DNA of 64,000 nt from Escherichia coli (GTDB lineage Bacteria > Pseudomonadota > Gammaproteobacteria > Enterobacterales > Enterobacteriaceae): assembly GCF_044647545.1 (NCBI RefSeq), contig NZ_CP172818.1; one strand, given 5' to 3'. The notes under the pieces are model-generated. The model was not told where the DNA came from and ran no database searches. It worked only from the letters and a program-made list of their open reading frames with translations. A program made the position numbers and the translations under genes. Positions within the stretch are counted from its first letter, which is position 1. The number at the start of each line of letters is the position of its first letter. Shown in pieces: positions 4,665-30,831 of this stretch.

Positions 4665-4774
4665 TGTGGTTCTCAATTACAGTTTCTGACTCAGGGCTAT
4701 TTTAAGAATAGAGGATGAAAGGTCTTTGGGGATTATCTGAATAAGCTCCCCTGGAATGCAGGGGAGCGGCAAGA

Positions 4775-5764: not shown

Positions 5765-5971
5765 AAGACTTTCTCCAGTGATGTTGAATCACATTTAAGC
5801 TACTAAAAATATTTTACAAAATTTCAAATATAATTGAAAGCTATGGCGATATTGAAAAATTCATCAACAACTATGCTTAGTGTAGGCGCAACCTTCAACT
5901 GAACGGTTAAACATGCCACAATACCCGTATTGAATGCTTAATTTTTCGCTAAATCAGGATATTAACTACCC

Positions 5972-8611: not shown

Positions 8612-8793
8612 AAATTTTACTGGCTGCGTTGACGTCATCTTTTATGCTGGTTGGCTGTACGCCTCGCATTGAAGTCGCTGCCCCTAAGGAACCGATCACT
8701 ATCAATATGAACGTTAAAATTGAGCATGAGATCATCATCAAGGCAGACAAAGATGTCGAAGAGCTGCTTGAAACTCGTAGCGATCTTTTCTGA
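8608..8793 (+). CDS. ynbE: small lipoprotein YnbE, 61 aa
   Basis: 61-aa ORF MKILLAALTSSFMLVGC with lipobox; overlaps ydbH stop by 4 bp. Confidence 0.85.
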   Translation: MKILLAALTSSFMLVGCTPRIEVAAPKEPITINMNVKIEHEIIIKADKDVEELLETRSDLF

Positions 8794-8800
8794 GGCGATG

Positions 8801-9127
8801 ATGAAGAAAACATTACTTCTTTGTGCGTTTCTTGTTGGGCTGGTAAGCAGCAATGTAATGGCATTGACTCTGGATGAAGCCAGAACTCAGGGGCGGGTAG
8901 GTGAAACATTTTATGGTTATCTGGTTGCGCTGAAAACAGATGCTGAAACAGAGAAATTAGTAAACGACATTAATGCCGAACGTAAAGCGAGTTACCAACA
9001 ACTGGCAAAGCAAAATAATGTGTCGGTAGATGATATCGCGAAACTCGCCGGGCAAAAGCTCGTAGCTCGGGCCAAACCGGGGGAATATGTACAAGGGATA
9101 AACGGTAAATGGGTGCGAAAATTTTAA
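8801..9127 (+). CDS. ydbL: periplasmic protein YdbL (DUF1318), 108 aa
   Basis: ORF 8720-9127 trimmed to MKKTLLLCAFLVGLVSSNVMA signal peptide start, 8 bp after the ynbE stop; 108 aa. Confidence 0.8.
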   Translation: MKKTLLLCAFLVGLVSSNVMALTLDEARTQGRVGETFYGYLVALKTDAETEKLVNDINAERKASYQQLAKQNNVSVDDIAKLAGQKLVARAKPGEYVQGINGKWVRKF

Positions 9128-9260
9128 TAGCAAAACCGCACTATCGGGATAACGCTACAGGAGAAGGCGATTAATCTATTTTCCGGAAACAAGATGATTA
9201 TTCAAAAACTCCTGTCAAATTGCCTTTCGCCCTGAAAATGAATAGTCAAATATCTGTTTT

Positions 9261-9299
9261 AACTAATTAGCGTTGCTGTACATGCAACGCTAATTAGTT
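9261..9299. repeat. 39-bp hairpin-forming palindrome (16-bp perfect arms, 7-nt loop) at the 3' ends of ydbL and feaR
   Basis: AACTAATTAGCGTTGC-tgtacat-GCAACGCTAATTAGTT read directly; abuts the feaR stop codon (9298-9300); no flanking T-run. Confidence 0.8.
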
Positions 9300-10203
9300 A
9301 GCGGAATTTACGTCGATACTCGCCTGGCGTCATCCCAAAGCGTTGCTTAAATACCGTTGAAAAATGACTCTGGTCGGAAAATCCCCAATGAAAGCCAATG
9401 CCTGCCAGTTTTTCATCATCTGCGGCATGGCGAATCGCATCTGCACAAAAATCGAGACGACGGTTACGGATATATTGCGCGACTACCAAACCTTTATCGG
9501 CAAACATTCGGTACAAACTACGTACTGACATACCTGTCTCTCCGGCTATCCACTCCGGGCGTAATATCTCTTCGCGAATATTATCGTCTATCAACGTAAC
9601 CACTTTTTGAAACTGACGTTCACGACGAGGTTGAACAGATTCCCGCTGATGAAGTACCGGGCGCAGCAGACACACCATCGCCTGTAGCGCAGCTTCACTT
9701 TCTGTTTCAGAAAGTGCCGGATTATTCATGCTCTCCTGTAACAGGCGATGACTGAGTTGCACCATGGGTAAGTCAGCGTCCAGTCTTTCTGCGCAGATAG
9801 GTTTTTGATGGGGAAAATATTGTTCCAGCAGAGTGCGTGGCAAAAGTAATGAAATCTGTTTAGAAGACTCCTGCCAGTAAAGCGAACAGGGGCGTGAGGC
9901 ATCGAGTAACGTAATATCGCCAGCGCCAATCTGCACCTGACGCTCATCCTGCTCCATTATTGCCTGACCACTAAGCTGAAAAACGGTGTAAAACCAGGCA
10001 TCGTCGCTGCCTTTTACTTCCTGCCAGGTGCGGGATAAATTCACCCCGCTGGTTGTCACGGTACTCAGCTTTAGTCCTTTGGCAAAATGCGTGTCCAGTA
10101 CACCCGTGTAACGCTCAGTCAGCAGGCGTCCGGTAAAATTTCCGCATACCTGATTGATTTGGGAAAGCCATTGCTGAAACTCATTATCCACTGCGGGGTT
10201 CAT
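9298..10203 (-). CDS. feaR: AraC/XylS-family transcriptional activator of feaB/tynA, 301 aa
   Basis: 301-aa ORF with C-terminal AraC-type HTH; divergent from feaB. Confidence 0.9.
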   Translation of the reverse strand: MNPAVDNEFQQWLSQINQVCGNFTGRLLTERYTGVLDTHFAKGLKLSTVTTSGVNLSRTWQEVKGSDDAWFYTVFQLSGQAIMEQDERQVQIGAGDITLLDASRPCSLYWQESSKQISLLLPRTLLEQYFPHQKPICAERLDADLPMVQLSHRLLQESMNNPALSETESEAALQAMVCLLRPVLHQRESVQPRRERQFQKVVTLIDDNIREEILRPEWIAGETGMSVRSLYRMFADKGLVVAQYIRNRRLDFCADAIRHAADDEKLAGIGFHWGFSDQSHFSTVFKQRFGMTPGEYRRKFR

Positions 10204-10322
10204 GGCACGTTTTCGCTCTGTGAAATGTATTTTTATTGTTGCATTTGTGTTGCAATAAACGAAGCTAATGAGCCTGACTATAGGAAATAAGTCTTGTCAG
10301 GCATAGAGACATAAGCGGTTAT

Positions 10323-10368
10323 TGTCACGATTTGCGGAGCTTGTCACAGCTGACAAAGCGAATGTCAC
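10323..10368 (+). promoter_or_regulatory. three direct TGTCAC repeats in the feaR-feaB intergenic region (candidate FeaR operator / feaB promoter)
   Basis: TGTCAC at 10323, 10342 and 10363, spaced 19-21 bp, about 70-110 bp upstream of the feaB ATG. Confidence 0.45.
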
Positions 10369-10435
10369 AGCGAAAAAAGTGACTTTTCTTGTCGCTGCGT
10401 ACACTGAAATCACACTGGGTAAATAATAAGGAAAA

Positions 10436-11932
10436 GTGATGACAGAGCCGCATGTAGCAGTATTAAGCCAGGTCCAACAGTTTCTCGATCGTCAACACGG
10501 TCTTTATATTGATGGTCGTCCTGGCCCCGCACAAAGTGAAAAACGGTTGGCGATCTTTGATCCGGCCACCGGGCAAGAAATTGCGTCTACTGCTGATGCC
10601 AACGAAGCGGATGTAGATAACGCAGTCATGTCTGCCTGGCGGGCCTTTGTCTCGCGTCGCTGGGCCGGGCGATTACCCGCAGAGCGTGAACGTATTCTGC
10701 TACGTTTTGCTGATCTGGTGGAGCAGCACAGTGAGGAGCTGGCGCAACTGGAAACCCTGGAGCAAGGCAAGTCAATTGCCATTTCCCGTGCTTTTGAAGT
10801 GGGCTGTACGCTGAACTGGATGCGTTATACCGCCGGGTTAACGACCAAAATCGCGGGTAAAACGCTGGACTTGTCGATTCCCTTACCCCAGGGGGCGCGT
10901 TATCAGGCCTGGACGCGTAAAGAGCCGGTTGGCGTAGTGGCGGGAATTGTGCCATGGAACTTTCCGTTGATGATTGGTATGTGGAAGGTGATGCCAGCAC
11001 TGGCAGCAGGCTGTTCAATCGTGATTAAGCCTTCGGAAACCACGCCACTGACGATGTTGCGCGTGGCGGAACTGGCCAGCGAGGCTGGTATCCCTGATGG
11101 CGTTTTTAATGTCGTCACCGGGTCAGGTGCTGTATGCGGCGCGGCCCTGACGTCACATCCTCATGTTGCGAAAATCAGTTTTACCGGTTCAACCGCGACG
11201 GGAAAAGGTATTGCCAGAACTGCTGCTGATCACTTAACGCGTGTAACGCTGGAACTGGGCGGTAAAAACCCGGCAATTGTATTAAAAGATGCTGATCCGC
11301 AATGGGTTATTGAAGGCTTGATGACCGGAAGCTTCCTGAATCAAGGGCAAGTATGCGCCGCCAGTTCGCGAATTTATATTGAAGCGCCGTTGTTTGACAC
11401 GCTGGTTAGTGGATTTGAGCAGGCGGTAAAATCGTTGCAAGTGGGACCGGGGATGTCACCTGTTGCACAGATTAACCCTTTGGTTTCTCGTGCGCACTGC
11501 GACAAAGTGTGTTCATTCCTCGACGATGCGCAGGCACAGCAAGCAGAGCTGATTCGCGGGTCGAATGGACCACCAGAGGTATTATGTTGCGCCAACGCTA
11601 GTGCGGTAAAATCCCGATGCTAAATTGCGCTTAACTCGTGAAGAGGTGTTTGGTCCGGTGGTAAACCTGGTGCGAGTAAGCGGTGGAAGAGGCGTTACAA
11701 CTGGCAAACGACACGGAATATGGCTTAACTGCCAGTGTCTGGACGCAAAATCTCTCCAGGCTCTGGAATATAGCGATCGCTTACAGGCAGGGACGGTGTG
11801 GGTAAACAGCCATACCTTGATTGACGCTAACTACCGTTTGGTGGGATGAAGCAGTCAGGAACGGGCCGTGATTTTGGCCCCGACTGGCTGGACGGTTGGT
11901 GTGAAACTAAGTCGGTGTGTGTACGGTATTAA
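10436..11932 (+). pseudogene. feaB: phenylacetaldehyde dehydrogenase, frameshifted in its 3' third
   Basis: First ~385 codons intact (ORF 10436-11623, aldehyde dehydrogenase family); expected length 499 aa. Remainder recoverable only in shifted frames (ORF 11625-11849 [18 protein letters not shown]...); original stop context ...KSVCVRY* at 11930-11932. Confidence 0.8.
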
Positions 11933-11953
11933 TATTGGTTCGCTAATTAAGTA

Positions 11954-11979
11954 AAAAACGGCACCTGGTGCCGTTTTTT
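11954..11979. terminator. bidirectional intrinsic terminator between convergent feaB and tynA
   Basis: A6-CGGCACC..GGTGCCG-T6 hairpin flanked by A and T runs. Confidence 0.7.
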
Positions 11980-11991
11980 GTCTGAAAACAA

Positions 11992-14283
11992 TCACTTATC
12001 TTTCTTCAGCGCCCCTAGCGTTGGCGTTTCATAAAGAAGTTCCATGGTTTAAGCAGAGTATGTACCCATTCGGTCGGCATAATCGGCCACTCTTCAGCAC
12101 GGGCCACATGTGTGGTGCCGGTGGGTCATCCAGACAACGGCGTCGGTGTTGTCCAGCGACTCGTTATCTTTACTGTATTGTCCAAGACCGGTGTCATCAG
12201 TAGAACGGTTCAGGATATTTGCCTTCCGGGAAACGCTCGCCAGGATGATAACGCGTTACCCAGAAAGCTGCTTTGTCCATAAAGCTTAAACGATGATAGA
12301 TCCACTCATCCCAGGCGCCACTGGGCACCTTTTGCTACCGGGTGAGTACCGCCTGCATAAGGAATAATTTGATAGGAAACTGGATTGCCCATGCGGTTCT
12401 CTTTGTTGCGGGTTACTCAACAGACGAATCATGCCCCGGATCAAACTACGGCATCCTGTTCATTGCCGATGTTGTACTGATTAACTTGCATCAAGGTACT
12501 GGTGCGTCGGCCACCGGCAGTATTCGGTTTCCACTGGGTCCATCGCCACCAGGCTGTTATTCTCGCCATCTACATAAGGAATCGAGGCAGAAATTATCGA
12601 TCTGTTTGGTGTCAGTACCCACGATACTGTGATCGATAAGCGTGCCGTAGCGCGTGTCATCTTTCGCCGTCTCATCGTGCATGGTTTTCGCTTTAACACC
12701 TTTCACCGCTTCGATGCCCGTAGCACCGGCATCAATGCCAATAGTGCCGTTTTCATGGAAGATCCAGTCAAAATGTAGTCATAGTTACCCACTGTACTGA
12801 TCCAGCGCACCACTGACTCCCAGCATTCAGGTACTGACGTTGGGCTGGCCCATTTCCTGATGCTTATACTCCGGCCCGGCATAACGTTTCAAATACCGCG
12901 ATAGCGCGAGGATCTCCATCGGCACGCCAGTGTAGTCGGCGATGGTTTCATTAAGGAGCACTGCGTTAGACGGGGCATCTTTACCACGGCGAAATTGGTG
13001 AGGTTAGCGTGCCCATACCGTAGTCACCAGAGTCCAGATACGCTTTAAAGTACCAGCCAATATCCAGGATCACCGTAAGGCACAATAATGTCGCCGAGGA
13101 GAACCTTCGTGCATGACTTTGCGTTTGGTGCCGATATTGGTATATAGTCACGGTGGAGATCATAGGCCCGACGCGAGAGTTCATGCTGAGGTGAAAATCC
13201 CAGTTCCGCCAGTGAATAGTATCTCGCCAGTAATGGTGTAATTTTTACCTTCAGGCTCAATGATTTGCATAGGCTTGACTGCCGGAGCAACGCGGTCACG
13301 GCTATCAAATGGGCGTGCGGTCATTCACACGGAACTCCGGACCTTCTTCAATCTTAACGATTTTTTTCTGTTTCTGATCAACGACCGCCACCAGGTTTTC
13401 GATGGGATGTGCCCAGTAGTTCCATCGCCGACAGTCAAGATAGCTGATGACTTTGAGCAACCGGGCATCTTGTTTCAGGCCATCTTTACCATCGAAATAA
13501 CCTACGGTCAGCGGCGTGGTAATCACTTTTTTCGCATCAGTAATACCGCGTTTCTTCACGGCAGCGGCAAATTCTTCACTGTTGTTAATAATGTTCTGCA
13601 CACTGGCGAAATCATCCAGCAACACCATACCCGTGGCGTGTTTAATGGGTTCCAGGAGAGCAGTTTGTTGTTTTGCAGATCCACCACCGCTTCGATGATA
13701 TGTTTGCCGTCGAGCATAATGACGTCGGCTTTGCGCGGCTGGTCAACCGGTTTGTTTTCCAGCGCAAACGCCCAGACAGCTTCTTTATCTGGCGGTAGCA
13801 GGAGATCTCAGTAAAACAGGGTATTGGGTTTGAAGTCCCGCGGAAGCTTTAACAATTTCAACGGCCTGTTTAATTTCGTACCACAGTTCACGCATTAAGT
13901 GGGTGAGGGCGCTTTTATTACCTGAAAGGTTTGATCCAGACCGGACTGGAAAACATCGTTAATAAAGGTGTCGCAAAACCCAGGCCTTATTGTCTTTCAT
14001 ACGCTCCCGGCACTTGCAGTGCCAAGGTAGCCATTAACAATTGCTGTTTTGCGCACCAGGCTTCACTTTCACGTACGCGCCATCTTTAATCAGGGTAAAG
14101 ATCTGGGCGTAGTCGTCCCACTGCACATCGGCACCAAATTCTTTAAGCGTTTCATCCATTGGCACCATATGCGCTTCACCACCGTGGGCAAATACCGGCG
14201 CTTGCCAGGCGAAACTTAAGGCGACTGCCAACGCCAGGGTTGTTTTACGGGCAGAATCCGGAGAAAGAGGGCTTCCAGTTATT
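11992..14283 (-). pseudogene. tynA: copper/topaquinone amine oxidase (tyramine oxidase), heavily frameshifted
   Basis: Minus-strand fragments 14034-14315, 13305-13628, 13045-13308, 12981-13184 and 12481-12699 translate to successive pieces of TynA (e.g. ARKTTLALAVALSFAWQAPVFAHGGEAHMVPMD; MVLLDDFASVQNIINNSEEFAAAVKKRGITDAKK) separated by frame changes; stop ...LKKDK* at 11992-11994; start codon region also altered. Expected 757 aa. Confidence 0.75.
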
Positions 14284-14485
14284 AACCTCGTCAGATGTTG
14301 TGTTCTTGTTAGCAACCGCGCTCTGTGGGCGGTTTAGTCAGGTTCACATTATGAGTACTGATGCAAAGAAATCCTGCACCTCAGAGTTATTTGGCAGGTG
14401 TGCCCACTTTTTCATACAGTGGGTGCCCTGAAAATCAATGTACACATCATGCATAATGTGACAACGTCACAAAAGTTAGTGAAAT

Positions 14486-14516
14486 GAAAAAGGGCAACTG
14501 TTCGGGCCGTTGCCCT
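14486..14516 (-). terminator. intrinsic terminator downstream of paaZ
   Basis: GGGCAAC..GTTGCCC hairpin followed on the minus strand by a T5 run. Confidence 0.6.
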
Positions 14517-14527
14517 TCATTCACCGA

Positions 14528-16563
14528 TTAATCGACAAAATCACCATATCCTGGCCACCAGCGTCAGAATTGAATACAGCGCCACCGGGGTTTGATGCTG
14601 ATTGAATACCTCTACCGCCCATTCCACCACCTGTTGGTTTTTCTTCTGCGCTACGCTGTTTTTTCAGCGTCTTGCGCTTACAGGTGAGACGCACCTGGAT
14701 GGTATCGCCTGGCTTTACGGGTTCGATAAGCGCAAGTTTTCCAGCCCATAATTAGCAATGACCGGACCGACACCGGCATCGACAAACAGACCCGCAGAGC
14801 CGCAGAAAAAGCACAAAATACCCATGCACCACACGCTCACCGAAAATAGATTCGGCAGCAGCAGAATATTATCCATATGCGCATAGAAATAATCGCCGCT
14901 GAGGCAAGCAAAGTTAACAATATCGGCCTCTGTCATTGTGCGGCGGGAGTGGCAGGTATCCGCCTGGTTGTAGCTCCTCAAAATATTTGCGGAACGGATG
15001 AATACGATCTTCTTCGACTTTCGCACCACGCACCCACTGTTTACTGATAGCTGCAAGCATCGTCGGACTACCCTGAACAGCGGTTCGCTGCGTGTGATCC
15101 TTCACCCGCTCGTAAACCACCTAATTCTTCACCGCCTCCTGCGCGACCAGGCCCACCATGTAACAGTTGTGGCAGTCGGAGAGCCATGCCGGTGGATTCT
15201 TTTGCCGATTCCTCATTGAGGATCTGAATTCGCCCATGCGTACGTGCCGCGTCGGTAATAAACTGACGCGCAATTTGCGGATCAGCCGTCACCAGCGTTC
15301 CGCAAGGCTACCGCCGCCTGCACAAGCCAGTTGCAGAGCATGTCGCTGGTTTTGTGCTGGCATCAGCGTTGCGACAGGGCCAAAGGCTTCTGTTGCATGT
15401 ACCGCCGGTGTTTCATCCGGCTGCGGACAGTACAATAAGGTTGGCGGGAAAGAGCACCCGCAGCAGATAAATCCGCCTGACCACCGAGGCGAATCTCGCA
15501 TCCTGCAGCCAGCAATATGTTCACTTTTTCCTGCACATCGGCACGCTGCTCAGCATTTACCAGTGCGCCCATATTCACGCCTTCCTGAGCAGGATCACCG
15601 ACCACGACTTTCTGTAATCGCGCAACCAGGACGATTCACTGACAGCATTAACCAATGCCTGCGGCGCGATAATCCGCCGGATTGCCGTACATTTTTGCCC
15701 GGCTTTTGTGGTCATCTCACGCACAACTTCACGAATAAACAGCGCAAACTCCGAGTTAAATGCGGGTAACATCTTCGCCCAGTACGCAGCAGTTCAGGGA
15801 ATCAGCTTCCATAGTGAAGGGGATAGATTTGGCGACGATATTTGGCTGAACTCGCGGCGTCTCTGCAGGTCGCCGCTGACCCGTGAAAGTCACCACATCC
15901 TGGCTGTCCAGATAATCCAAAAGGTCGCCCGCACTACCGCAGATCAGACTAATTGCGCCTTCGGGAACAAGACCACTATCGACAATTGATTTCACCATCG
16001 CCTGAGTACGTTGGGCCGTCGCGGTAGCTGGTTTGATGATGGCTGGCATTCCGCCCAGCCACGTTGGTGCCAGCTTCCGGCGTTTTGCCACAGGGGAAGT
16101 TAAAGGCGTTAATATGCACTGCCACGCCTGAGCTTTGAGGTCAGTACATGGCGCGCGGCAAATCCACCTTCTTTCGATAAGGGGATCAATTCATCTTCCG
16201 GCCACAGCGTATCGTCGGCGGCTGCCCGGCTACCGAGGCTGGCGTAAGTAAATAACGTCCCAATGCCACCTTCAAATCAACCGAACTGTTGCCGCGTTGC
16301 GCCTGTTTGCGCAGAAAGACATAGAAGCGCTCTTTTTTCACTCAGCAGATGTTTAGCGACCGCTTTAAGCATCGCCGCACGTTCGATAAAGGTCATCACG
16401 CAGAAGCAGCCTTTTCAATGGCAAACTGCAACGGGCCACCGCCATATAGACCTTTCACTGGTCACTTCCCATAACGCCTCGCCGCTGATAGCGTGGTGAA
16501 TCAAACGGCTACCACCCCGCCAGACTGCCAGGTACCGGATAAGAAACTGGCTAACTGCTGCAT
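14528..16563 (-). pseudogene. paaZ: bifunctional oxepin-CoA hydrolase / aldehyde dehydrogenase, multiply frameshifted
   Basis: ATG intact at 16561-16563 and stop ...GDFVD* at 14528-14530, but interior split into fragments (15756-16091, 15575-15772, 15363-15605, 15068-15292, 14715-15056) that each match PaaZ segments; span 2036 nt versus 2046 expected (681 aa). Confidence 0.75.
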
Positions 16564-16792
16564 CGCTACTCTCCAGATGTTTCACATTTATGTTGCTAAT
16601 AGTTAAATTGCGAATCATAAAAAGCAAGGGTTCTTTTAACGAAATGTTAACTATGCAAATATGTATCACAACTGCGGAAAACATTAATGCACTGATAAAT
16701 AATGATTTATAAAAAATCGGGTGCGAAATCCGTCACAGTTCAAGCATACAAAATTTGTGATTTTAGTTAACCATTGTGTAACTTTCATAAAC

Positions 16793-16834
16793 AATGTGAT
16801 TCGTGTTTTTAATTAATTCGCGAACTTGGAATCG
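16793..16834. promoter_or_regulatory. PaaX-type operator half-site in the paaZ-paaA divergent promoter region
   Basis: AATGTGATTCGTGTT at 16793-16807 fits the PaaX box consensus WWTRTGATTCGYGWT as I remember it; an imperfect inverted partner GAATCG lies 26 nt downstream. Confidence 0.45.
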
Positions 16835-16847
16835 TAAAGGTAATAAC

Positions 16848-17773
16848 ATAACCCAAGAAGAACGCTTTGAGCAACGGATAGCCCAGGAAACGGCTATCGA
16901 GCCGCAGGACTGGATGCCAATAAGAAAGCACTGATCCGCCAGATTGGGCAGCATGCACACTGCAAATTGTGGTATGTTCCTGAAGGTAACTGGATCACTG
17001 GCGCACGACCTTTTGCAGCATAAAGCCATTCTGTTCGCCAAAGTCCAGGATGAAGCCGGTCATCGTCTGTATCTCTATAGCGCCGCCGAAACACTGGGCT
17101 GCACAGAGAAGACATCTACCAAAAAATGCTCAAACAACGATAAATATTCCTCCATCTTTAATTATCCGACATTGGTCTCCAGGGGCTGATATCGGCGTTA
17201 TCGGCTGGCTGGTGGAGTAGCAGCGATCGTCAATCAGGTGGCGTTATGTCGCACTTCTTATGGCCCGTATGCCAGAGCAATGGTGAAGATCTGCAAAGAA
17301 GAGAGTTTTTCACCAGCGTCAGGGGTTTGAAGCCTGCATGGCACTGGCGCAGGCGGCGAAGGACGCTCAAAAGCAGATGTTGCAAGACGCCATTAACCGT
17401 TTCTGGTGGCCAGCCTTAATGATGTTCGGGCCAAACGATGATAACTCGCCAAACAGCGCCAGAAGTACCGCCTGGAAAATCAAACGTTTCACCAACGACG
17501 AACTCGCCAGCGTTTCGTGGATAACACCATTCCACAGGTTGAAATGCTCGGTATGACCGTTCCTGACCCGGATCTGCATTTTGACACTGAAAGCGGTCAC
17601 TACCGCTTTGGTGGAAATCAACTGGCAGGAGTTTAACGAAGTAATTAACGGTCGCCGGAATTTGTAATCAGGAGAGGCTCGACGCCAAACGTAAAGCCTG
17701 GGAAGAAGGTACCTGGGTACGGGAAGCAGCGCTGGCCCATGCACAAAAACAACTTGCCCGTAAGGTCGCATAA
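16848..17773 (+). pseudogene. paaA: ring 1,2-phenylacetyl-CoA epoxidase subunit A, start codon lost and frameshifted
   Basis: Conserved N-terminus reads I-TQEERFEQRIAQETAIEPQDW with ATA in place of ATG at 16848-16850; later pieces (e.g. 17338-17556 MALAQAAKDAQKQMLQDAINRFWWPALMMFGPNDDNSPNSARS) in other frames; stop at 17771-17773. Expected 309 aa. Confidence 0.75.
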
Positions 17774-17784
17774 GGAGATTCAAA

Positions 17785-18069
17785 ATGAGTAATGTTTATT
17801 GGCCGTTATACGAAGTTTACCCGTTCGTGGCAAACAGGGCTTATCACACCGCCATGTTGGCAGTTTTTACATGCTGCCGATGAGCGGATGGCACTGAAAA
17901 TGCCGGTGATTGTTACACCGTCGTAGCGAAGGATGTTCAATTTGGGTGGTGAAGGCGAGTGAAATTGTTGCCTCGCAACCGGAAGAACGCGGTGAATTTT
18001 TTGATCCGGCTGAAGCAAGGTCTATCGCCATCCAACGTTTTACACCATCCCTGATGGCATTCAACATGA
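17785..18069 (+). pseudogene. paaB: epoxidase subunit B, frameshifted
   Basis: ATG at 17785 with MSNVYWPLYEV N-terminus; body recovered in a shifted frame (17910-18149 ...SEGCSIWVVKASEIVASQPEERGEFFDPAE...). Expected 95 aa; 3' end approximate. Confidence 0.65.
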
Positions 18070-18077
18070 GGTCGGAA

Positions 18078-18820
18078 ATGAATCAGTTAACGGCTTACAC
18101 CTTCGCCTGGGCGATAACTGCCTGGTGCTTCCAGCGGTTGGGTGAATAGTGCGGTCATGCACCGGAACTGGAAATCGATCTCGCACTGGCAAATATTGGA
18201 CTCGATTTATTAGGCCAGGCACGCAACTTCTTATCGTATGCCGCTGAATTAGCGGGAGAAGGCGATGAAGATACCCTGGCCTTCACCCCAACAAGCACCA
18301 GTTCAGCAACTTATTGTTGGTTGAACAGCCAAACGGCAATTTTGCCGACAACCGTCGCCAGTATTTCATCGATGCATGGCATGTGGCGCTCTTTACCATT
18401 CTGATGGAGAGCCGTGATCCGCGACTGGCGGCGATTTCTGCAAAGCGATTAAAGAAGCGCGTTATAGCCTGCGTTTTATTCGTGGCTGGCTGGAGCAACT
18501 GGGCAATGGTACTGACGTATACGGGCGAAAGAATGCCAGCAGGCCATCAACAAGTTGTGGCGTTTTACCGCCGAACTGTAGATGCCGACGAGATTGATAT
18601 TGCACTGAGTGAAGAGGGTATTGCGGTTGATCCACGCGCTTTTACGCGCAGCGTGGGAAGCCGAAGTTTTTGCCGGGATCAACGAAGCCACATTCAACGT
18701 ACCGCAGAGCAGGCGTATCGCACTGGCGGTAAAAAAGGACTGCATACCGAACACCTTGGACCCATGCTGGCAGAAATGCAGTTATTGTTTGAGCGTGTCT
18801 TGCCCGGTCAGCAATGGTAA
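18078..18820 (+). pseudogene. paaC: epoxidase subunit C, frameshifted
   Basis: Start MNQLTAYT at 18078; C-terminal portion in ORF 18314-18820 ends ...LPGQQW*; span 743 nt, not a multiple of 3, versus 747 expected (248 aa). Confidence 0.7.
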
Positions 18821-18834
18821 CAGAGGAGGTGGGT

Positions 18835-19325
18835 ATGCAACGTATCAGCCACCATTCCGCCGCCACAGGTTCATCCAGATATGGGCGCTACTGGGCGCGA
18901 TCCCGGACCGGAGATCCCGGTGCTGACCATTACCGATTTAGGCATGGTGCGTAATGTGACACAGATGGAAAGAATGGGTGATCGGCTTTACGCCGACTTA
19001 TTCCGGTTGTCCGGCAACGGAACGTTGATTGGCGCGATACGTGAGGCAATGACAACCCACGGGTTTACCCGTACGGTTGTGCTGCAACTCGACCCGGCAT
19101 GGACCACCGACTGGATGACCCCCGATGCCCGTGAGCGTCTGCGACGGTATGGCATTAGCCCGCCCGGCCGGAACAGTTGCCGGCCCATTTGCCGCCAGAA
19201 GTACGTTGCCCGCGCTGCGCCAGCGTCCATCCACACTTATCAGTGAATTTGGTTCCACGGCCTGCAAAGCATTGTACCGCTGCGATAGTTGCCACAAACC
19301 TTTCGATTATTTCAAATGTATTTGA
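18835..19325 (+). pseudogene. paaD: epoxidase subunit D, frameshifted
   Basis: ATG at 18835; fragments 18881-19246 (IPVLTITDLGMVRNVTQM...) and 19125-19325 (...CDSCHKPFDYFKCI*) in different frames. Confidence 0.7.
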
Positions 19326-19332
19326 GGATGCC

Positions 19333-20397
19333 ATGACAACGTTTCATTCCTTAACAGTGGCAAAAGTGGGCCCGGAAACCCGTGATGCGGTGACCATTAC
19401 CTTTGCATGCAGCCTTTGCAGGAGGCGTATCACTTTCGCCCCGGTCAACATTTGACCTTAAAAGCCAGTCTTGATGGTGAAGAATTAGCCATTGTTCTCC
19501 ATTTGCCGCAGCTACCTGCCTGGCGAAATTAGTGTGGCGGTGAAAGCCATTGAAGGCGGACGTTTCTCCCGCTATGCCCGCGAACACATCCGCCAGGGTA
19601 TGACGCTGGAGGTCATGGTGCCGCAGGGGCATTTCGGCTATCAGCCACAGGCCGAACACCAGGGCCGCTATCTGGCTATTGCAGCAGGATCAGGTATTAC
19701 GCCAATGCTGGCGATTATCGCCACCACTTTCAAACCGAGCCTGAAAGTCAGTTCACCCTGATCTACGGTAACCGTACCAGCCAGAGCATGATGTTTCGCC
19801 AGGCACTGGCAGACCTGAAAGACAAATATCCTCAGCGTTTACAGTTGTTGTGCATTTTCAGTCAGGAAACCCTCGACAGCGATCTGCTTCACGGGCGTAT
19901 TGACGGTGAAAAATTACGTGGCTTGGGGCCTCGCTCATTGATTTTTCGTCTTTATGATGAGGCGTTTGCTTTGTGGTCCGGCGGCGATGATGGATGAGAC
20001 GGAAGCCGCCTTAAAAGCACTGGGAATGCCAGATAAAACCATTCATCTGGAGCGGTTTAATACGCCTGGCACGCGCGTCAAAGCGTCGCGTTAACGTGCA
20101 AAGTGACGGACAAAAGTGACTGTACGTCAGGATCGGCGGGATCGGGAAATCGTGCTTAATGCCGACGATGAAAGCATTCTCGATGCGGCATTGCGCCAGG
20201 GGGCTGATCTGCCCTATGCCTGCAAAGGCGGCGTCTGTGCGACCTGCAAATGCAAAGTGCTGCGTGGCGAAGTGGCGATGGAAACCAATTACAGTCTGGA
20301 ACCGGATGAACTGGCCGCAGGTTATGTGTTGAGTTGCCAGGCACTGCCGCTGACCAGCGATGTGGTGGTTGACTTTGACGCGAAGGGGATGGCATCA
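19333..20397 (+). pseudogene. paaE: epoxidase reductase subunit E (ferredoxin-NADPH reductase), frameshifted and stop codon lost
   Basis: Start MTTFHSLTVAK at 19333; fragments 19492-19761 and 20116-20406 (2Fe-2S motif CKGGVCATCKCK) in different frames; the expected overlapping TGA stop reads TCA at 20395-20397. Confidence 0.7.
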
Positions 20398-21172
20398 GCG
20401 AACTGATCGTCAGCCGTCAGCAACAGGTGCTTGCTGCTGACCCTTAACCGTCCCGCCGCACGTAATGCGCTGAGAATAATGCCCTTCTGACGCAACTGGT
20501 AAATGAACTGGAAGCTGCGGCTACCGATAGCAGCATTTCGGTCTGTGTGATTACCGGTAATGCACGCTTTTTTGCCGCTGGGGCCGATCTCAACGAAATG
20601 GCAGAAAAAGATCTCGCGGCCACCTTAAACGATACACGTCCGCAGCTATGGGCGCGATTGCAGGCCTTTAATAAACCACTTATCGCAGCCGTCAATGGTT
20701 ACGCGCTTGGGGCGGGTTGCGAACTGGCATTGTTGTGCGATGTGGTGGTTGCCGGAGAGAACGCGCGTTTTGCGTTGCTTTTTACAGGAAATCACTCTCG
20801 GCATCATGCCAGGCGCAGGAGGAACGCAACGTTTAATCCGTAGTGTCGGTAAATCGTTAGCCAGCAAAAATGGTGCTGAGCGGAGAAAGTATCACCGCTC
20901 AGCAAGCACAGCAGGCCGGGCTGGTTAGCAACATCTTCCCCAGCGATTTAACCCTCGAATACGCCTTACAGCTGGCATCGAAAATGGCACGTCACTCGCC
21001 GCTGGCCTTACAAGCGGCAAAGCAAGCGCTGCGCCAGTCGCAGGAAGTGGCTTTGCAAGCCGGACTTGCCCAGGAGCGACAGTTATTCACCTTGCTGGCG
21101 GCAACAGAAGATCGTCATGAAGGCATCTCCGCTTTCTTACAAAAACGCACGCCCGACTTTAAAGGACGCTAA
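20394..21172 (+). pseudogene. paaF: 2,3-dehydroadipyl-CoA hydratase (enoyl-CoA hydratase), start codon lost and frameshifted in the 5' two-thirds
   Basis: N-terminus reads I-SELIVSRQQ with ATC in place of ATG at 20394-20396; frame breaks near 20775 and 20850; last 100 codons (20870-21172) intact, ending ...RTPDFKGR*. Expected 255 aa. Confidence 0.75.
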
Positions 21173-21960
21173 TGATGGAATTCATCCTCAGTCATGTAGA
21201 AAAGGGCGTGATGACACTAACGCTCAACCGCCCGGAACGCCTGAACAGTTTTAATGATGAGATGCACGCACAACTGGCAGAGTGCCTGAAACAGGTCGAG
21301 CGCGACGACACTATCCGTTGCCTGTTACTTACAGGTGCCGGGCGCGGATTTTGTGCTGGTCAGGATCTTAACGATCGTAACGTTGATCCCACAGGCCCCG
21401 CACCGGATTTAGGGATGTCAGTTGAACGTTTCTATAACCCACTGGTACGTCGCCTGGCAAAACTGCCAAAACCGGTGATCTGTGCAGTCAATGGCGTGGC
21501 GGCAGGGGCAGGCGCAACACTGGCACTGGGGGGCGACATCGTTATTGCTGCCCGTTCAGCAAAATTCGTCATGGCGTTTAGTAAGTTAGGCTTAATACCC
21601 GATTGCGGTGGAACCTGGTTACTGCCACGCGTTGCCGGACGAGCGCGCGCCATGGGGCTGGCACTGCTGGGGAATCAACTGAGTGCTGAACAGGCGCACG
21701 AATGGGGGATGATCTGGCAGGTTGTTGATGATGAAACGCTGGCAGATACCGCGCAACAGCTGGCACGGCATCTGGCGACACAACCGACATTTGGTCTTGG
21801 ACTTATCAAGCAAGCGATAAATAGCGCTGAAACCAATACGCTCGATACGCAACTGGATCTGGAACGTGACTATCAGCGACTTGCCGGACGGAGCGCAGAT
21901 TATCGTGAAGGTGTCAGTGCGTTCCTGGCTAAACGCTCACCGCAGTTCACGGGGAAATAG
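21172..21960 (+). CDS. paaG: 1,2-epoxyphenylacetyl-CoA isomerase (crotonase fold), 262 aa
   Basis: Intact 262-aa ORF MMEFILSHVEKGVMTLTLNRP...; start overlaps paaF stop by 1 bp. Confidence 0.9.
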   Translation: MMEFILSHVEKGVMTLTLNRPERLNSFNDEMHAQLAECLKQVERDDTIRCLLLTGAGRGFCAGQDLNDRNVDPTGPAPDLGMSVERFYNPLVRRLAKLPKPVICAVNGVAAGAGATLALGGDIVIAARSAKFVMAFSKLGLIPDCGGTWLLPRVAGRARAMGLALLGNQLSAEQAHEWGMIWQVVDDETLADTAQQLARHLATQPTFGLGLIKQAINSAETNTLDTQLDLERDYQRLAGRSADYREGVSAFLAKRSPQFTGK

Positions 21961-21961
21961 C

Positions 21962-23389
21962 ATGATGATAAATGTGCAAACTGTGGCAGTGATTGGGAGC
22001 GGCACCATGGGGGCAGGCATTGCTGAAGTTGCTGCCAGTCATGGACACCAGGTTTTACTGTATGACATTTCTGCTGAAGCGCTGACCCGCGCAATCGACG
22101 GGATACACGCGCGGCTAAATTCACGCGTGACGCGGGGAAAACTGACTGCTGAAACCTGTGAACGCACATTGAAACGCCTGATCCCGGTGACCGATATTCA
22201 CGCGCTGGCAGCTGCGGACCTGGTCATTGAAGCGGCGTCTGAACGTCTGGAAGTCAAAAAAGCGCTCTTTGCACAGCTGGCGGAAGTTTGCCCGCCACAA
22301 ACGCTATTGACCACTAACACTTCGTCAATCTCTATAACCGCGATTGCTGCGGAGATAAAAAATCCTGAACGTGTTGCGGGGCTGCATTTTTTTAACCCGG
22401 CACCGGTGATGAAGTTGGTGGAGGTGGTCAGTGGGCTGGCAACGGCGGCGGAAGTTGTTGAGCAGTTGTGTGAACTAACGTTGAGTTGGGGTAAGCAGCC
22501 TGTGCGCTGTCATTCGACTCCTGGATTTATCGTTAACCGTGTTGCGCGTCCTTATTATTCCGAGGCCTGGCGGGCACTGGAAGAGCAGGTTGCTGCACCA
22601 GAAGTGATTGACGCTGCACTTCGCGATGGCGCTGGTTTCCCGATGGGGCCGCTGGAATTAACCGATCTGATTGGTCAGGACGTCAATTTTGCTGTCACCT
22701 GTTCGGTGTTTAACGCTTTCTGGCAGGAGCGTCGTTTTTTACCTTCGCTGGTGCAACAGGAACTGGTGATTGGTGGACGGTTGGGCAAGAAAAGTGGGCT
22801 GGGCGTGTACGACTGGCGCGCGGAACGTGAGGCAGTTGTTGGCCTGGAAGCGGTAAGCGACAGTTTTAGCCCAATGAAAGTAGAAAAGAAAAGTGACGGT
22901 GTCACGGAAATTGACGATGTTTTATTGATTGAGACACAAGGCGAGACGGCACAGGCGCTGGCAATACGACTGGCACGCCCGGTGGTAGTGATCGATAAAA
23001 TGGCGGGCAAGGTGGTGACCATTGCTGCTGCAGCGGTGAACCCGGACTCAGCGACCCGCAAGGCCATTTATTACCTGCAACAGCAGGGCAAAACAGTGCT
23101 GCAAATTGCAGATTACCCAGGAATGCTGATTTGGCGAACGGTAGCAATGATCATCAATGAAGCCCTTGATGCGCTTCAAAAAGGCGTGGCCTCTGAACAG
23201 GATATCGATACCGCCATGCGTCTTGGGGTGAATTATCCATATGGCCCACTTGCCTGGGGAGCGCAACTTGGCTGGCAGCGAATATTAAGGCTCCTTGAAA
23301 ATCTACAGCATCACTATGGCGAAGAACGCTATCGCCCATGTTCATTGCTGCGCCAACGGGCGCTTCTGGAGAGCGGTTATGAGTCATAA
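21962..23389 (+). CDS. paaH: 3-hydroxyadipyl-CoA dehydrogenase, 475 aa
   Basis: ORF 21866-23389 trimmed to MMINVQTVAVIGSGTMGAGIA (Rossmann motif) directly after the paaG stop; 475 aa. Confidence 0.9.
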   Translation: MMINVQTVAVIGSGTMGAGIAEVAASHGHQVLLYDISAEALTRAIDGIHARLNSRVTRGKLTAETCERTLKRLIPVTDIHALAAADLVIEAASERLEVKKALFAQLAEVCPPQTLLTTNTSSISITAIAAEIKNPERVAGLHFFNPAPVMKLVEVVSGLATAAEVVEQLCELTLSWGKQPVRCHSTPGFIVNRVARPYYSEAWRALEEQVAAPEVIDAALRDGAGFPMGPLELTDLIGQDVNFAVTCSVFNAFWQERRFLPSLVQQELVIGGRLGKKSGLGVYDWRAEREAVVGLEAVSDSFSPMKVEKKSDGVTEIDDVLLIETQGETAQALAIRLARPVVVIDKMAGKVVTIAAAAVNPDSATRKAIYYLQQQGKTVLQIADYPGMLIWRTVAMIINEALDALQKGVASEQDIDTAMRLGVNYPYGPLAWGAQLGWQRILRLLENLQHHYGEERYRPCSLLRQRALLESGYES

Positions 23390-23801
23390 GGCCTGGCAAA
23401 ATGCCCATGCAATGTATGAGAACGATGCCTGCGCCAAAGCGCTTGGCATCGACATTATCTCAATGGATGAAGGCTTTGCTGTAGTGACCATGACCGTCAC
23501 TGCACAAATGCTTAACGGTCATCAAAGTTGCCACGGCGGGCAGCTATTTTCACTGGCTGATACTGCCTTTGCCTACGCCTGCAATAGCCAGGGGCTGGCA
23601 GCCGTCGCTTCTGCCTGCACGATTGATTTTTTGCGTCCAGGCTTTGCCGGAGACACCTTAACTGCTACTGCGCAGGTACGTCATCAGGGCAAGCAAACCG
23701 GTGTTTACGACATCGAAATTGTTAACCAACAACAAAAAACGGTTGCGCTGTTTCGCGGTAAATCTCACCGCATCGGCGGCACCATTACAGGAGAAGCCTG
23801 A
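23379..23801 (+). CDS. paaI: hotdog-fold acyl-CoA thioesterase, 140 aa
   Basis: ORF 23295-23801 trimmed to MSHKAWQNAHAMYEND; 140 aa. Confidence 0.85.
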   Translation: MSHKAWQNAHAMYENDACAKALGIDIISMDEGFAVVTMTVTAQMLNGHQSCHGGQLFSLADTAFAYACNSQGLAAVASACTIDFLRPGFAGDTLTATAQVRHQGKQTGVYDIEIVNQQQKTVALFRGKSHRIGGTITGEA

Positions 23802-25006
23802 TGCGTGAAGCCTTTATTTGTGACGGAATTCGTACGCCAATTGGTCGCTACGGCGGGGCATTATCAAGTGTTCGGGCTGATGATCTGGCTGCTATCCCTT
23901 TGCGGGAACTGCTGGTGCGAAACCCGCGTCTCGATGCGGAGTGTATCGATGATGTGATCCTCGGCTGTGCTAATCAGGCGGGAGAAGATAACCGTAACGT
24001 AGCCCGGATGGCGACTTTACTGGCGGGGCTGCCGCAGAGTGTTTCCGGCACAACCATTAACCGCTTGTGTGGTTCCGGGCTGGACGCACTGGGGTTTGCC
24101 GCACGGGCGATTAAAGCGGGCGATGGCGATTTGCTGATCGCCGGTGGCGTGGAGTCAATGTCACGGGCACCGTTTGTTATGGGCAAGGCAGCCAGTGCAT
24201 TTTCTCGTCAGGCTGAGATGTTCGATACCACTATTGGCTGGCGATTTGTGAACCCGCTCATGGCTCAGCAATTTGGAACTGACAGCATGCCGGAAACGGC
24301 AGAGAATGTAGCTGAACTGTTAAAAATCTCACGAGAAGATCAAGATAGTTTTGCGCTACGCAGTCAGCAACGTACGGCAAAAGCGCAATCCTCAGGCATT
24401 CTGGCTGAGGAGATTGTTCCGGTTGTGTTGAAAAACAAGAAAGGTGTTGTAACAGAAATACAACATGATGAGCATCTGCGCCCGGAAACGACGCTGGAAC
24501 AGTTACGTGGGTTAAAAGCACCATTTCGTGCCAATGGGGTGATTACCGCAGGCAATGCTTCCGGGGTGAATGACGGAGCCGCTGCGTTGATTATTGCCAG
24601 TGAACAGATGGCAGCAGCGCAAGGACTGACACCGCGGGCGCGTATCGTAGCCATGGCAACCGCCGGGGTGGAACCGCGCCTGATGGGGCTTGGTCCGGTG
24701 CCTGCAACTCGCCGGGTGCTGGAACGCGCAGGGCTGAGTATTCACGATATGGACGTGATTGAACTGAACGAAGCGTTCGCGGCCCAGGCGTTGGGTGTAC
24801 TACGCGAATTGGGGCTGCCTGATGATGCCCCACATGTTAACCCCAACGGAGGCGCTATCGCCTTAGGCCATCCGTTGGGAATGAGTGGTGCCCGCCTGGC
24901 ACTGGCTGCCAGCCATGAGCTGCATCGGCGTAACGGTCGTTACGCATTGTGCACCATGTGCATCGGTGTCGGTCAGGGCATCGCCATGATTCTGGAGCGT
25001 GTTTGA
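23801..25006 (+). CDS. paaJ: 3-oxoadipyl-CoA / 3-oxo-5,6-dehydrosuberyl-CoA thiolase, 401 aa
   Basis: Intact 401-aa thiolase ORF ([19 protein letters not shown]...CIGVGQG). Confidence 0.9.
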
Positions 25007-25032
25007 GCATATCAACCTGCGAGTACCCTACA

Positions 25033-26346: not shown

Positions 26347-26446
26347 CGTATCGTCTGGCCCTGGTGGGGTAAAGCGCCAGGGCCAGAAGTCGATACGACC
26401 TGTGCTATGATTCATAAATCACAACAATAACAACAGACTGAAGCGA

Positions 26447-27397
26447 ATGAGTAAACTTGATACTTTTATCCAACATGCTGTAAACGCTGTTCCGGTCAGT
26501 GGCACATCTTTGATCTCCTCTCTGTATGGTGATTCGCTTTCCCATCGTGGTGGTGAAATCTGGTTGGGTAGTCTGGCTGCTTTGCTGGAAGGGCTGGGAT
26601 TTGGTGAGCGTTTCGTGCGCACCGCTTTGTTTCGTCTTAATAAAGAAGGCTGGCTGGATGTTTCCCGCATCGGGCGACGCAGTTTCTATAGCCTCAGTGA
26701 TAAAGGCTTGCGCCTGACGCGACGGGCAGAAAGTAAAATTTATCGCGCAGAGCAACCTGCATGGGATGGTAAATGGCTCCTGTTGCTCTCGGAAGGTTTA
26801 GATAAATCAACGCTGGCTGATGTCAAAAAGCAGTTGATCTGGCAAGGTTTTGGCGCACTGGCACCCAGCCTGATGGCATCGCCGTCGCAAAAACTGGCCG
26901 ATGTACAGACACTTTTGCATGAAGCGGGTGTGGCGGATAACGTGATTTGTTTTGAAGCGCAAATACCACTGGCGCTTTCTCGCGCAGCACTGCGTGCCAG
27001 AGTAGAAGAGTGCTGGCATTTAACTGAACAAAATGCCATGTACGAAACCTTTATTCAGTCATTCCGCCCGCTGGTGCCGCTTTTAAAAGAGGCGGCAGAC
27101 GAGTTAACCCCGGAGCGGGCATTTCATATTCAGCTTTTACTGATCCATTTTTATCGCCGTGTCGTCCTTAAAGACCCATTGTTGCCGGAGGAGTTGCTTC
27201 CGGCACACTGGGCAGGGCATACGGCGCGTCAGCTGTGTATCAACATTTATCAGCGCGTAGCGCCTGCTGCTTTAGCGTTCGTTAGTGAAAAAGGTGAAAC
27301 CTCGGTCGGTGAATTGCCTGCGCCGGGAAGCCTGTATTTTCAACGTTTTGGCGGCTTGAATATTGAACAGGAGGCGTTATGCCAATTTATCAGATAG
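26447..27397 (+). CDS. paaX: phenylacetyl-CoA-responsive transcriptional repressor of the paa operon, 316 aa
   Basis: Intact 316-aa ORF; preceded by a TGATTC motif at 26407. Confidence 0.9.
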
Positions 27398-28038
27398 ACG
27401 GTCTGACTCCGGTTGTGCCAGAAGAGAGTTTTGTCCATCCGACAGCGGTATTGATCGGCGATGTTATTCTCGGCAAGGGCGTTTACGTTGGGCCAAATGC
27501 CAGCCTGCGTGGCGATTTTGGTCGTATCGTGGTGAAAGATAGCGCGAACATTCAGGATAATTGCGTTATGCACGGTTTTCCCGAGCAGGATACTGTCGTG
27601 GAAGAAGATGGACATATTGGTCATAGCGCTATCCTTCACGGCTGCATTATCCGCCGCAATGCATTAGTGGGAATGAACGCGGTAGTGATAGACGGTGCGG
27701 TGATTGGCGAGAACAGCATTGTTGGCGCATCCGCATTTGTGAAAGCCAAAGCAGAAATGCCAGCTAATTACCTGATTGTCGGCAGCCCGGCGAAAGCGAT
27801 TCGTGAACTCAGTGAGCAGGAGTTGGCATGGAAAAAGCAGGGTACGCATGAGTACCAGGTGCTGGTGACACGCTGTAAGCAGACGTTACATCAAGTCGAG
27901 CCATTGCGGGAAGTTGAACCTGGAGGCAGCGCCTGGTATTTGATGAGAATCTGCGACGAAACAGTAACAGATGTAAAATTATTTTGTCCCTTTAATTATA
28001 AAGCAGAGTTATGTTTAAGCTCTGCTTTATTTATTTGA
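27379..28038 (+). CDS. paaY: hexapeptide-repeat (gamma-carbonic-anhydrase-like) thioesterase PaaY, probably frameshifted near the 3' end
   Basis: ORF of 219 aa overlapping the paaX stop by 19 bp; expected 196 aa. The last ~30 codons read through a terminator hairpin, and an out-of-frame TAA at 27965-27967 sits where the native stop should be if two single-base deletions near 27925-27960 are restored. Confidence 0.7.
28001..28037 (+). terminator. intrinsic terminator after paaY
   Basis: AAGCAGAG (28001-28008) and CTCTGCTT (28020-28027) stem with 11-nt loop followed by a T-rich tail. Confidence 0.6.
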
Positions 28039-28297
28039 GTATTAATTCATACCGTTTTTTCATCATATAATTATTTATAATGAGAATGTGGTTTTAATTT
28101 GTAATTTATATTATATACACAATTTATATATTTCATGGTCTTTTTTTATTCACCTGAATTATAATTGTGAATTATAGGAAAGTATGTTTGATTAGATAAT
28201 AATCTACTGGCAATATTGGATGTCTTCTATGTTTTAAATAACTAATTGGTCGGGTTAGTGCATCCGGCTTTCTTTATATTCGCCAGAAGGATTTATT

Positions 28298-30820: not shown

Positions 30821-30831
30821 TGGATTTGCCC

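What the first reader, a model, noticed from the sequence alone, without database searches (positions are those of the whole stretch)
16793..16834. PaaX operator-like half-site intact but its inverted partner degenerate in the paaZ-paaA control region
AATGTGATTCGTGTT at 16793-16807 fits the PaaX box consensus as I remember it, while the partner 26 nt downstream reads GAATCG rather than a clean inverted half-site. This region lies inside the decay block, so regulatory DNA may be damaged as well as coding DNA.
Basis: partly seen in the sequence, partly recalled or inferred. Interest (0 to 1): 0.3.

Follow-up and report, generated by a model that had tools for sequence, protein, structure and literature searches.

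The report
Wild-type PaaX operator, noisy patch
The "degenerate" half of this repressor-binding site is the normal E. coli sequence, and the real damage nearby sits in a 9.4-kb stretch that looks like a sequencing or assembly artefact, not natural gene decay.

Summary
The sequence is as described. AATGTGATTCGTGTT lies at 16793-16807 and GAATCG at 16829-16834, 26 nt apart, in the paaZ-paaA intergenic region. This is the known PaaX operator of the paaA promoter (Pa).

K-12 MG1655 and seven other natural E. coli carry the identical 15-bp box and the identical GAATCG partner, so the imperfect partner is wild type.

The changes private to the window are elsewhere:
- The spacer is 26 nt instead of the 27 nt seen in all eight references, with three substitutions and a 1-nt deletion.
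- One A is lost upstream of the box.
- Four G>A changes destroy the paaA Shine-Dalgarno sequence and turn the GTG start into ATA.

These lie in a sharply bounded block, 11573-20933, with 248 private substitutions and 150 indel events. The block does not look like natural decay:
- Its flanks are identical to K-12.
- Insertions roughly equal deletions.
- Substitutions fall evenly on all three codon positions.
- The substitution spectrum is strongly strand-asymmetric in the same direction over genes on both strands.
- Its background alleles come from a different strain than its flanks.
- It was not found in any collection searched.

The window as a whole is a three-source mosaic whose joints coincide with a deletion junction in its closest relative. 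Interest is low.

The parts
16793..16807 (+). 15-bp PaaX box of the paaA promoter (Pa), AATGTGATTCGTGTT. Left hexamer TGATTC is at 16797-16802.
   Evidence: sequence; exact match to the remembered consensus; identical in K-12 and BS-04; the other six E. coli differ only by T/C at the third base.
16803..16828 (+). Operator spacer, 26 nt here and 27 nt in all eight references. Private changes: A>G at 16820, a 1-nt deletion after 16822, A>C at 16825, C>T at 16826.
16829..16834 (+). Right hexamer GAATCG, 5 of 6 matches to GAATCA. Native and unchanged.
   Evidence: invariant in 8 of 8 natural E. coli; published site TGATTC(N27)GAATCA.
16839..16850 (+). paaA Shine-Dalgarno sequence and start codon, destroyed. 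The reference reads GGTGATGACGTG and the window reads GGTAATAACATA (four G>A; GTG start becomes ATA).
   Evidence: The reference sequence is invariant in 8 of 8.
16607..16621 (-). PaaX box of the paaZ promoter (Pz), TTTATGATTCGCAAT. Its one mismatch to the remembered consensus is a natural variant shared with strain BS-04. The partner GAAACA lies 28 nt away at 16578-16583.
16722..16737 (.). CRP-like site TGCGAAATCCGTCACA between the two promoters, with no private change. The assignment is my inference from the CRP consensus.
   Evidence: sequence; no private differences between 16719 and 16787.
26447..27397 (+). paaX repressor gene, intact at 316 aa. Its one difference from K-12 (27314) is synonymous by my calculation from the coordinates (CTG>TTG, Leu).
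   Evidence: ORF. Pfam PaaX, PaaX_M and PaaX_C all above cut-off..
11573..20933 (.). Noisy block running from the 3' part of feaB through tynA, paaZ and paaA-E into mid paaF. It has 248 private substitutions, 77 deletion events and 73 insertion events on a BS-04-type background, between flanks identical to K-12.

Best explanation
The feature is the ordinary, already characterised PaaX operator of the paaA promoter. It consists of TGATTC, inside a 15-bp box just downstream of the promoter, and an inverted partner GAATCG.

In E. coli the repressor PaaX (GntR type) binds such sites and is released by phenylacetyl-CoA. The partner's single mismatch to GAATCA is the wild-type state of this operator, not damage.

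Both hexamers are untouched in this window. The spacer between them is one base short and carries three substitutions. The paaA ribosome-binding site and start codon are gone, and paaZ and paaA-F are riddled with frameshifts.

Those private changes belong to a 9.4-kb patch (11573-20933). Its pattern fits an uncorrected, single-strand-type sequencing error profile, or an equivalent artificial perturbation, spliced into a chimeric assembly. It does not fit mutational decay in a living lineage.

Shown: the identity of the site, the native imperfect partner, the location and nature of the private changes, the mosaic structure and the mutation statistics. Inferred: that the block is technical in origin, and that a 26-nt spacer would weaken PaaX binding.
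For: Identity of the locus: searches align it to annotated paaZ and paaA.

Native partner: searches show 8 of 8 natural E. coli with GAATCG and a 27-nt spacer. In one search all 3131 paa-bearing complete genomes match the 77-nt K-12 operator/SD/start segment at 90% or more. Of these, 1622 match exactly, and none of the 40 sampled rows shows a net length change. By my count from the private differences, the window's copy is about 68/77 identical.

Published site: TGATTC(N27)GAATCA (review PMC9493321). The native Pz and putative Px operators also have imperfect partners. The repressor gene is intact.

The block is not natural:
- Flanks 9506-11572 and 20934-27245 have zero differences from K-12, while the block has 398 events in 9361 nt.
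- There are 150 indel events against 248 substitutions, with 73 insertions and 77 deletions.
- Substitutions fall on codon positions 72/75/77.
- G>A versus C>T is 62:17 (p = 4e-7) and A>G versus T>C is 46:10 (p = 1e-6). The bias runs the same way over minus-strand and plus-strand genes. Natural differences outside the block are symmetric.
- The spectrum depends on the preceding base.
- The block carries BS-04-type alleles at 77 of 79 discriminating sites, and its flanks carry K-12 alleles at 89 of 89.
- The edges fall inside feaB and paaF.
- The altered version is absent from 5426 E. coli genomes, GTDB genomes, metagenomes and plasmids.

Mosaic: window 1-9505 and 36916-39916 are 100% identical to strain MS6198, as is 37000-61000. 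Window 27246-27968 matches it apart from two private 1-nt deletions. The MS6198 feaR'-'paaX deletion junction coincides exactly with the switches to K-12-identical DNA.
Against: I have no reads, quality values or assembly metadata, so the technical origin is inferred from pattern alone.

Single-base indels are only mildly enriched in homopolymers (31% in runs of 3 or more, against 17% background). That is weaker than expected for typical nanopore error.

A deliberate in-silico perturbation would look similar, and I cannot tell the two apart.

The primary papers that mapped the PaaX footprints were not available. The 15-bp consensus and the promoter positions rest on my memory and one review.
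Confidence: 0.85

Rival explanations
1. Genuine natural decay. The tynA-paaZ-paaA-F segment is real DNA that has been non-functional for a long time, was brought in by recombination from a BS-04-like donor lineage, and has accumulated neutral mutations in coding and regulatory DNA alike.
For: Private substitutions are uniform over codon positions. Their density is the same in the intergenic region as in genes. These are the expectations for unconstrained DNA. The background alleles come from a real E. coli lineage. A substitution level of 2.6% is within species-level divergence.
Against: The indel-to-substitution ratio is 0.6 with no deletion bias. From my own knowledge, not checked here, E. 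coli mutation-accumulation studies and bacterial pseudogenes give roughly 0.1 with a deletion bias. The fourfold strand asymmetry ignores gene orientation. The edges are sharp, fall inside genes and abut DNA with zero divergence from K-12. No other genome, metagenome or plasmid carries any version of it.
Confidence: 0.05
2. Deliberate or software-made construct. The window, or the record it comes from, was assembled from several references, with K-12 filling the regions that the MS6198-type strain lacks. The block was altered in silico or copied from a low-quality source.
For: The joints coincide exactly with the MS6198 deletion junction on both sides. The K-12-type ydbA::IS2::IS30 fills the second region that MS6198 lacks. 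No complete genome joins these pieces. There are small private lesions elsewhere: two in the paaY 3' end and a 15-to-20-nt replacement at the ydbA/IS2 joint.
Against: A simple simulator would not be expected to produce a strand-specific substitution profile that depends on the preceding base, or clustered events. This rival overlaps with the best explanation, since both are non-biological, and differs only in how the noise arose.
Confidence: 0.1
3. The GAATCG hexamer is irrelevant. PaaX recognises only the 15-bp box, and the downstream hexamer is a chance match.
For: The bipartite pattern alone is not statistically unusual (17 of 100 shuffles). The partners at Pz and Px are weak and sit at different spacings.
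Against: GAATCG and the 27-nt distance are invariant in eight E. coli that differ at 35 other columns of the region. The published PaaX site is bipartite. However, the hexamer sits next to the ribosome-binding site, which could explain its conservation.
Confidence: 0.15

Closest known systems
E. coli Pa (paaA promoter) PaaX operator, TGATTC-N27-GAATCG. From memory: Ferrandez, Garcia and Diaz 2000, and Kim et al. 2004. Cited through review PMC9493321.
   Same: Same locus by synteny. Identical 15-bp box and identical GAATCG partner. The cognate paaX gene is intact about 9.6 kb downstream.
   Different: The spacer is 26 nt instead of 27, with three substitutions. One A is lost between the presumed -10 element and the box. 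The gene it controls has lost its ribosome-binding site and start codon and is frameshifted.
E. coli Pz (paaZ promoter) PaaX operator
   Same: Same box family (TTTATGATTCGCAAT at 16607-16621, minus strand). It also has an imperfect partner (GAAACA).
   Different: 28-nt spacing. It overlaps the presumed -10 element, where PaaX competes with RNA polymerase according to the review. It has no private change; its one variant base is shared with BS-04.
Uncorrected long-read error patches and reference fill-in in draft assemblies
   Same: Sharp edges unrelated to genes. Mostly 1-nt indels with insertions roughly equal to deletions. A strand-specific, context-dependent substitution profile. Flanks identical to a reference exactly where the nearest relative has deletions.
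   Different: No read data are available to confirm it. Homopolymer enrichment is modest.

Membership tests
PaaX operator (E. coli paa regulon) | TGATTC hexamer within the conserved 15-bp box | tested here: met
   exact match at 16793-16807. Identical to K-12.
PaaX operator (E. coli paa regulon) | Inverted partner resembling GAATCA | tested here: met
   GAATCG, 5 of 6, the same as in 8 of 8 natural E. coli.
PaaX operator (E. coli paa regulon) | Spacing of 27 nt between the hexamers (published N27) | tested here: not met
   26 nt in the window and 27 nt in all references. Native Pz has 28 and the putative Px has 26, so the tolerance is unknown.
PaaX operator (E. coli paa regulon) | Position in the paaZ-paaA divergent control region, upstream of paaA | tested here: met
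   Alignment to annotated references.
PaaX operator (E. coli paa regulon) | Cognate PaaX repressor encoded in the cluster | tested here: met
   316-aa ORF at 26447-27397 with the three Pfam PaaX domains.
PaaX operator (E. coli paa regulon) | PaaX binding that is relieved by phenylacetyl-CoA | not testable with these tools
   Needs EMSA, footprinting or reporter assays.
Natural pseudogene decay | Neutral divergence of flanking DNA comparable with that of the decayed DNA | tested here: not met
   There are zero differences from K-12 in 9506-11572 and 20934-27245, against 398 events in the block.
Natural pseudogene decay | Substitutions outnumber indels several-fold, with deletions exceeding insertions | tested here: not met
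   248 substitutions against 150 indel events, with 73 insertions and 77 deletions. The expected ratio comes from my knowledge of E. coli mutation-accumulation studies and pseudogene surveys.
Natural pseudogene decay | Near strand-symmetric mutation spectrum | tested here: not met
   G>A 62 against C>T 17, and A>G 46 against T>C 10, in the same direction over genes of both orientations.
Sequencing or assembly artefact | Low coverage or quality, or a single-read origin, in the raw data | not testable with these tools
   No reads or assembly metadata are available.
Sequencing or assembly artefact | Chimeric joints that coincide with real structural differences from a reference | tested here: met
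   The switches between MS6198-type and K-12-type DNA lie at exactly the MS6198 deletion junction. The change of background alleles is compatible with the block edges, within 0.6-1.3 kb on each side.

The most novel reading that the evidence does not exclude
The block is real DNA. A living E. coli would carry a re-acquired feaB'-tynA-paaZ-paaA-F' segment that passed through a localised, strand-specific, indel-prone hypermutation process, for example error-prone synthesis from a single-stranded intermediate. That would leave a PaaX operator with intact hexamers but a shortened spacer next to an intact repressor gene.
Probability: 0.04. Interest if true: 0.6.

Novelty: already known. Interest (0 to 1): 0.05.

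Why it matters
It matters little for biology. The operator is a textbook site and its imperfect right half is the normal state, so the hexamers give no evidence of regulatory decay.

The practical value is a warning. The surrounding 9.4 kb and the wider window look like a chimeric, partly low-quality sequence. Any claim of operon decay drawn from this window should be held until the source data are checked.

Tried and rejected
- **Primary papers.** Ferrandez 2000, Kim 2004, Galan 2004 and del Peso-Santos 2006 were not held. A full-text search for the 15-bp consensus string found nothing. The only citable source for the site was review PMC9493321.
- **Promoter scan.** The sigma-70 consensus scan of the intergenic region was uninformative for these weak, activator-dependent promoters.
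- **Plasmid-borne copy.** I considered that the block came from a plasmid copy of the paa region. The only hit in the plasmid collection is a mislabelled 4.8-Mb chromosome at 95.3% identity.
- **Functional homologue.** I considered that the private changes were copied from a functional homologue in another species. The uniform codon-position distribution and out-of-frame indels argue against it.
- **Transcription-linked mutation.** I considered this as the cause of the strand bias. It is rejected because the bias does not flip between minus-strand and plus-strand genes.
- **A correction to my own profile.** The apparent high divergence in ydbA at 28950-30015 came from secondary repeat alignments that I had wrongly included.
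- **Cross-genus comparison.** I did not run the expensive comparison of paaA upstream regions, because the E. coli references already answer the question.

Full report
**Observation.** The window reads AATGTGATTCGTGTT at 16793-16807 and GAATCG at 16829-16834, with 26 nt between TGATTC (16797-16802) and GAATCG. The region aligns to the annotated paaZ-paaA intergenic region of E. coli. The paaZ start codon is at 16561-16563 on the minus strand, and the paaA start position is 16848-16850. Both copies are in this intergenic region, against 0.22 expected by chance.

It does. K-12 MG1655 and strain BS-04 have the identical 15-bp box and the identical GAATCG. Six more E. coli, taken at even steps down the natural diversity of this region (95-100% identity to K-12), also all read GAATCG. 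All have a spacer of exactly 27 nt, although they differ at 35 other columns of the alignment.

At population level, all 3131 paa-bearing genomes among 5426 complete E. coli match the 77-nt K-12 segment spanning box, spacer, partner, ribosome-binding site and start codon at 90% or more. Of these, 1622 match exactly, and none of the 40 sampled rows shows a net length change. The published E. coli PaaX site is TGATTC(N27)GAATCA (review PMC9493321). Pa is therefore natively 5 of 6 in its right half. The Pz operator is TGATTC-N28-GAAACA, and a putative Px site upstream of paaX is TGATTC-N26-GAAGCG. No native paa operator has a perfect partner.

**What is actually altered.** Sixteen differences are private to the window within 16657-16850. 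None touches the box or either hexamer.
- Four lie in the spacer: A>G at 16820, a 1-nt deletion after 16822, A>C at 16825 and C>T at 16826. Together they shorten it from 27 to 26 nt.
- One A of an AAAA run just upstream of the box is lost (after 16788).
- Four G>A changes at 16842, 16845, 16848 and 16850 convert GGTGATGACGTG to GGTAATAACATA. This removes the paaA Shine-Dalgarno sequence and turns the GTG start into ATA. That stretch is invariant in all eight references.

Downstream, paaA is frameshifted from codon 24. paaZ is frameshifted from about codon 15. No long ORF survives between 12000 and 21000. The repressor gene paaX is intact (316 aa, three Pfam PaaX domains). Its single nucleotide difference from K-12 is synonymous by my calculation from the coordinates.

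That the box and hexamer escaped is not evidence of selection. At the block's event density (0.043 per nt), 21 nt escape 40% of the time, and the intergenic density (16 events against 12 expected) is not unusual.

**The block.** Against both K-12 and BS-04 the window shows a sharply bounded stretch, 11573-20933, with 248 private substitutions, 77 deletion events and 73 insertion events, mostly of 1 nt. It starts inside feaB and ends inside paaF. Immediately outside, 9506-11572 and 20934-27245 have no difference at all from K-12. Several features argue against natural decay:
- The indel-to-substitution ratio is 0.6 with no deletion bias.
- The transition/transversion ratio is 1.2, against about 2.6 for natural differences outside the block.
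- Substitutions fall on codon positions 72/75/77.
- The spectrum is strongly strand-asymmetric: G>A 62 against C>T 17 (p = 4e-7), and A>G 46 against T>C 10 (p = 1e-6). The direction is the same over the minus-strand genes tynA and paaZ and the plus-strand genes paaA-F. Natural differences outside the block are symmetric.
- The changes depend on the preceding base. Purine swaps mostly follow C, and transversions mostly follow T.
- The events are clustered.

The expectation of about one indel per ten substitutions, with a deletion bias, comes from my own knowledge of E. coli mutation-accumulation work and bacterial pseudogene surveys. It was not checked here.

**Mosaic structure.** At sites where K-12 and BS-04 differ, the block carries the BS-04 allele at 77 of 79 sites, while its flanks carry the K-12 allele at 89 of 89. 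Further out, window 1-9505 and 36916-39916 are 100% identical to strain MS6198, as is 37000-61000. Window 27246-27968 matches MS6198 apart from two private 1-nt deletions.

MS6198 has a deletion running from within feaR to within paaX. Its junction coincides exactly with the two switches to K-12-identical DNA. MS6198 also lacks ydbA, which in the window is the K-12-type ydbA::IS2::IS30. No complete genome joins the MS6198-type left flank to feaR-feaB; the best full-length match is 98.8%. An exact 45-mer from the altered operator region is absent from the GTDB genome set and from the metagenome set. The plasmid collection holds no such copy.

Natural recombination would have to cross over within 36 and 68 bp of a deletion junction on both sides to give this picture. 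Reference fill-in plus a patch from a noisy source explains it simply.

**Most likely reading.** The site is the known Pa operator. In wild-type cells PaaX binds the two hexamers and blocks expression of paaABCDEFGHIJK until phenylacetyl-CoA releases it (and my memory of Ferrandez 2000). Taken at face value, the window's operator keeps both recognition hexamers but brings them one base closer together. I infer that this would rotate them by roughly a tenth of a helical turn and might weaken binding. Native sites span 26-28 nt if my Px assignment is right, so the effect is uncertain. It would be moot in any case, since paaA cannot be translated and paaZ and paaA-F are broken.

I think it much more likely (about 0.85) that these private changes are not biological. 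They would be either errors of an uncorrected single-molecule read used as a patch, or an equivalent artificial perturbation, inside a chimeric assembly.

**Weaknesses.**
- I have no reads.
- Homopolymer enrichment of the indels is modest.
- I cannot tell sequencing noise from in-silico noise.
- The primary footprinting papers were not available, so the promoter positions and the 15-bp consensus rest on memory.

**Verdict.** It is right only in the loose sense that the control region carries changes. The feature is already known and interest is low. The useful outcome is the flag on the provenance of this window.

Noticed in passing
window 1-9505, 9506-27245, 27246-27968, 27969-36915, 36916-64000: The window is a mosaic. 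The outer parts match strain MS6198: 1-9505 and 36916-39916 at 100%, 37000-61000 at 100%, and 27246-27968 apart from two private 1-nt deletions. The parts MS6198 lacks, the feaR'-'paaX deletion and ydbA, are K-12-type. The joints fall exactly at the MS6198 deletion junction, and no complete E. coli genome joins these pieces.
   Followed up: yes
window 27919 and 27953 (paaY 3' end; ORF 27379-28038): There are two private 1-nt deletions, found in neither MS6198 nor K-12. They shift the end of paaY and extend the ORF to 219 aa instead of 196.
   Followed up: partly
window 30801-30820 (ydbA/IS2 joint): The last 15 nt of ydbA before IS2 in K-12 (ATGGGACAAGAACCC) are replaced by 20 different nt (TGGTGACAGTAGTACCCAGG). 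This is a third small private lesion outside the block.
   Followed up: partly
window 16609 (Pz PaaX box, 16607-16621 minus strand): The Pz box reads TTTATGATTCGCAAT, against K-12 TTTATGATTCGCGAT. This is a natural polymorphism shared with BS-04, not part of the private damage. Other strains have GTGAT here, so this box position varies naturally.
   Followed up: yes
window 26408-26451 (upstream of paaX): There is a putative Px operator, TGATTC-N26-GAAGCG, just upstream of the paaX start and identical to K-12. If the assignment is right, a 26-nt spacing occurs natively.
   Followed up: no
window 16657-16668: Five private changes fall within 12 nt (the reference GC-GATCTGTATAG becomes GCAAATATGTATCA), between the Pz promoter and the CRP-like site. 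I did not establish whether they hit a known IHF or SlyA site.
   Followed up: no
window 11573-20933: The substitution contexts are peculiar. G>A and A>G mostly follow C (30 of 62 and 30 of 46). A>C, G>C, C>A and C>T mostly follow T. T is rarely the mutated base or the product.
   Followed up: partly
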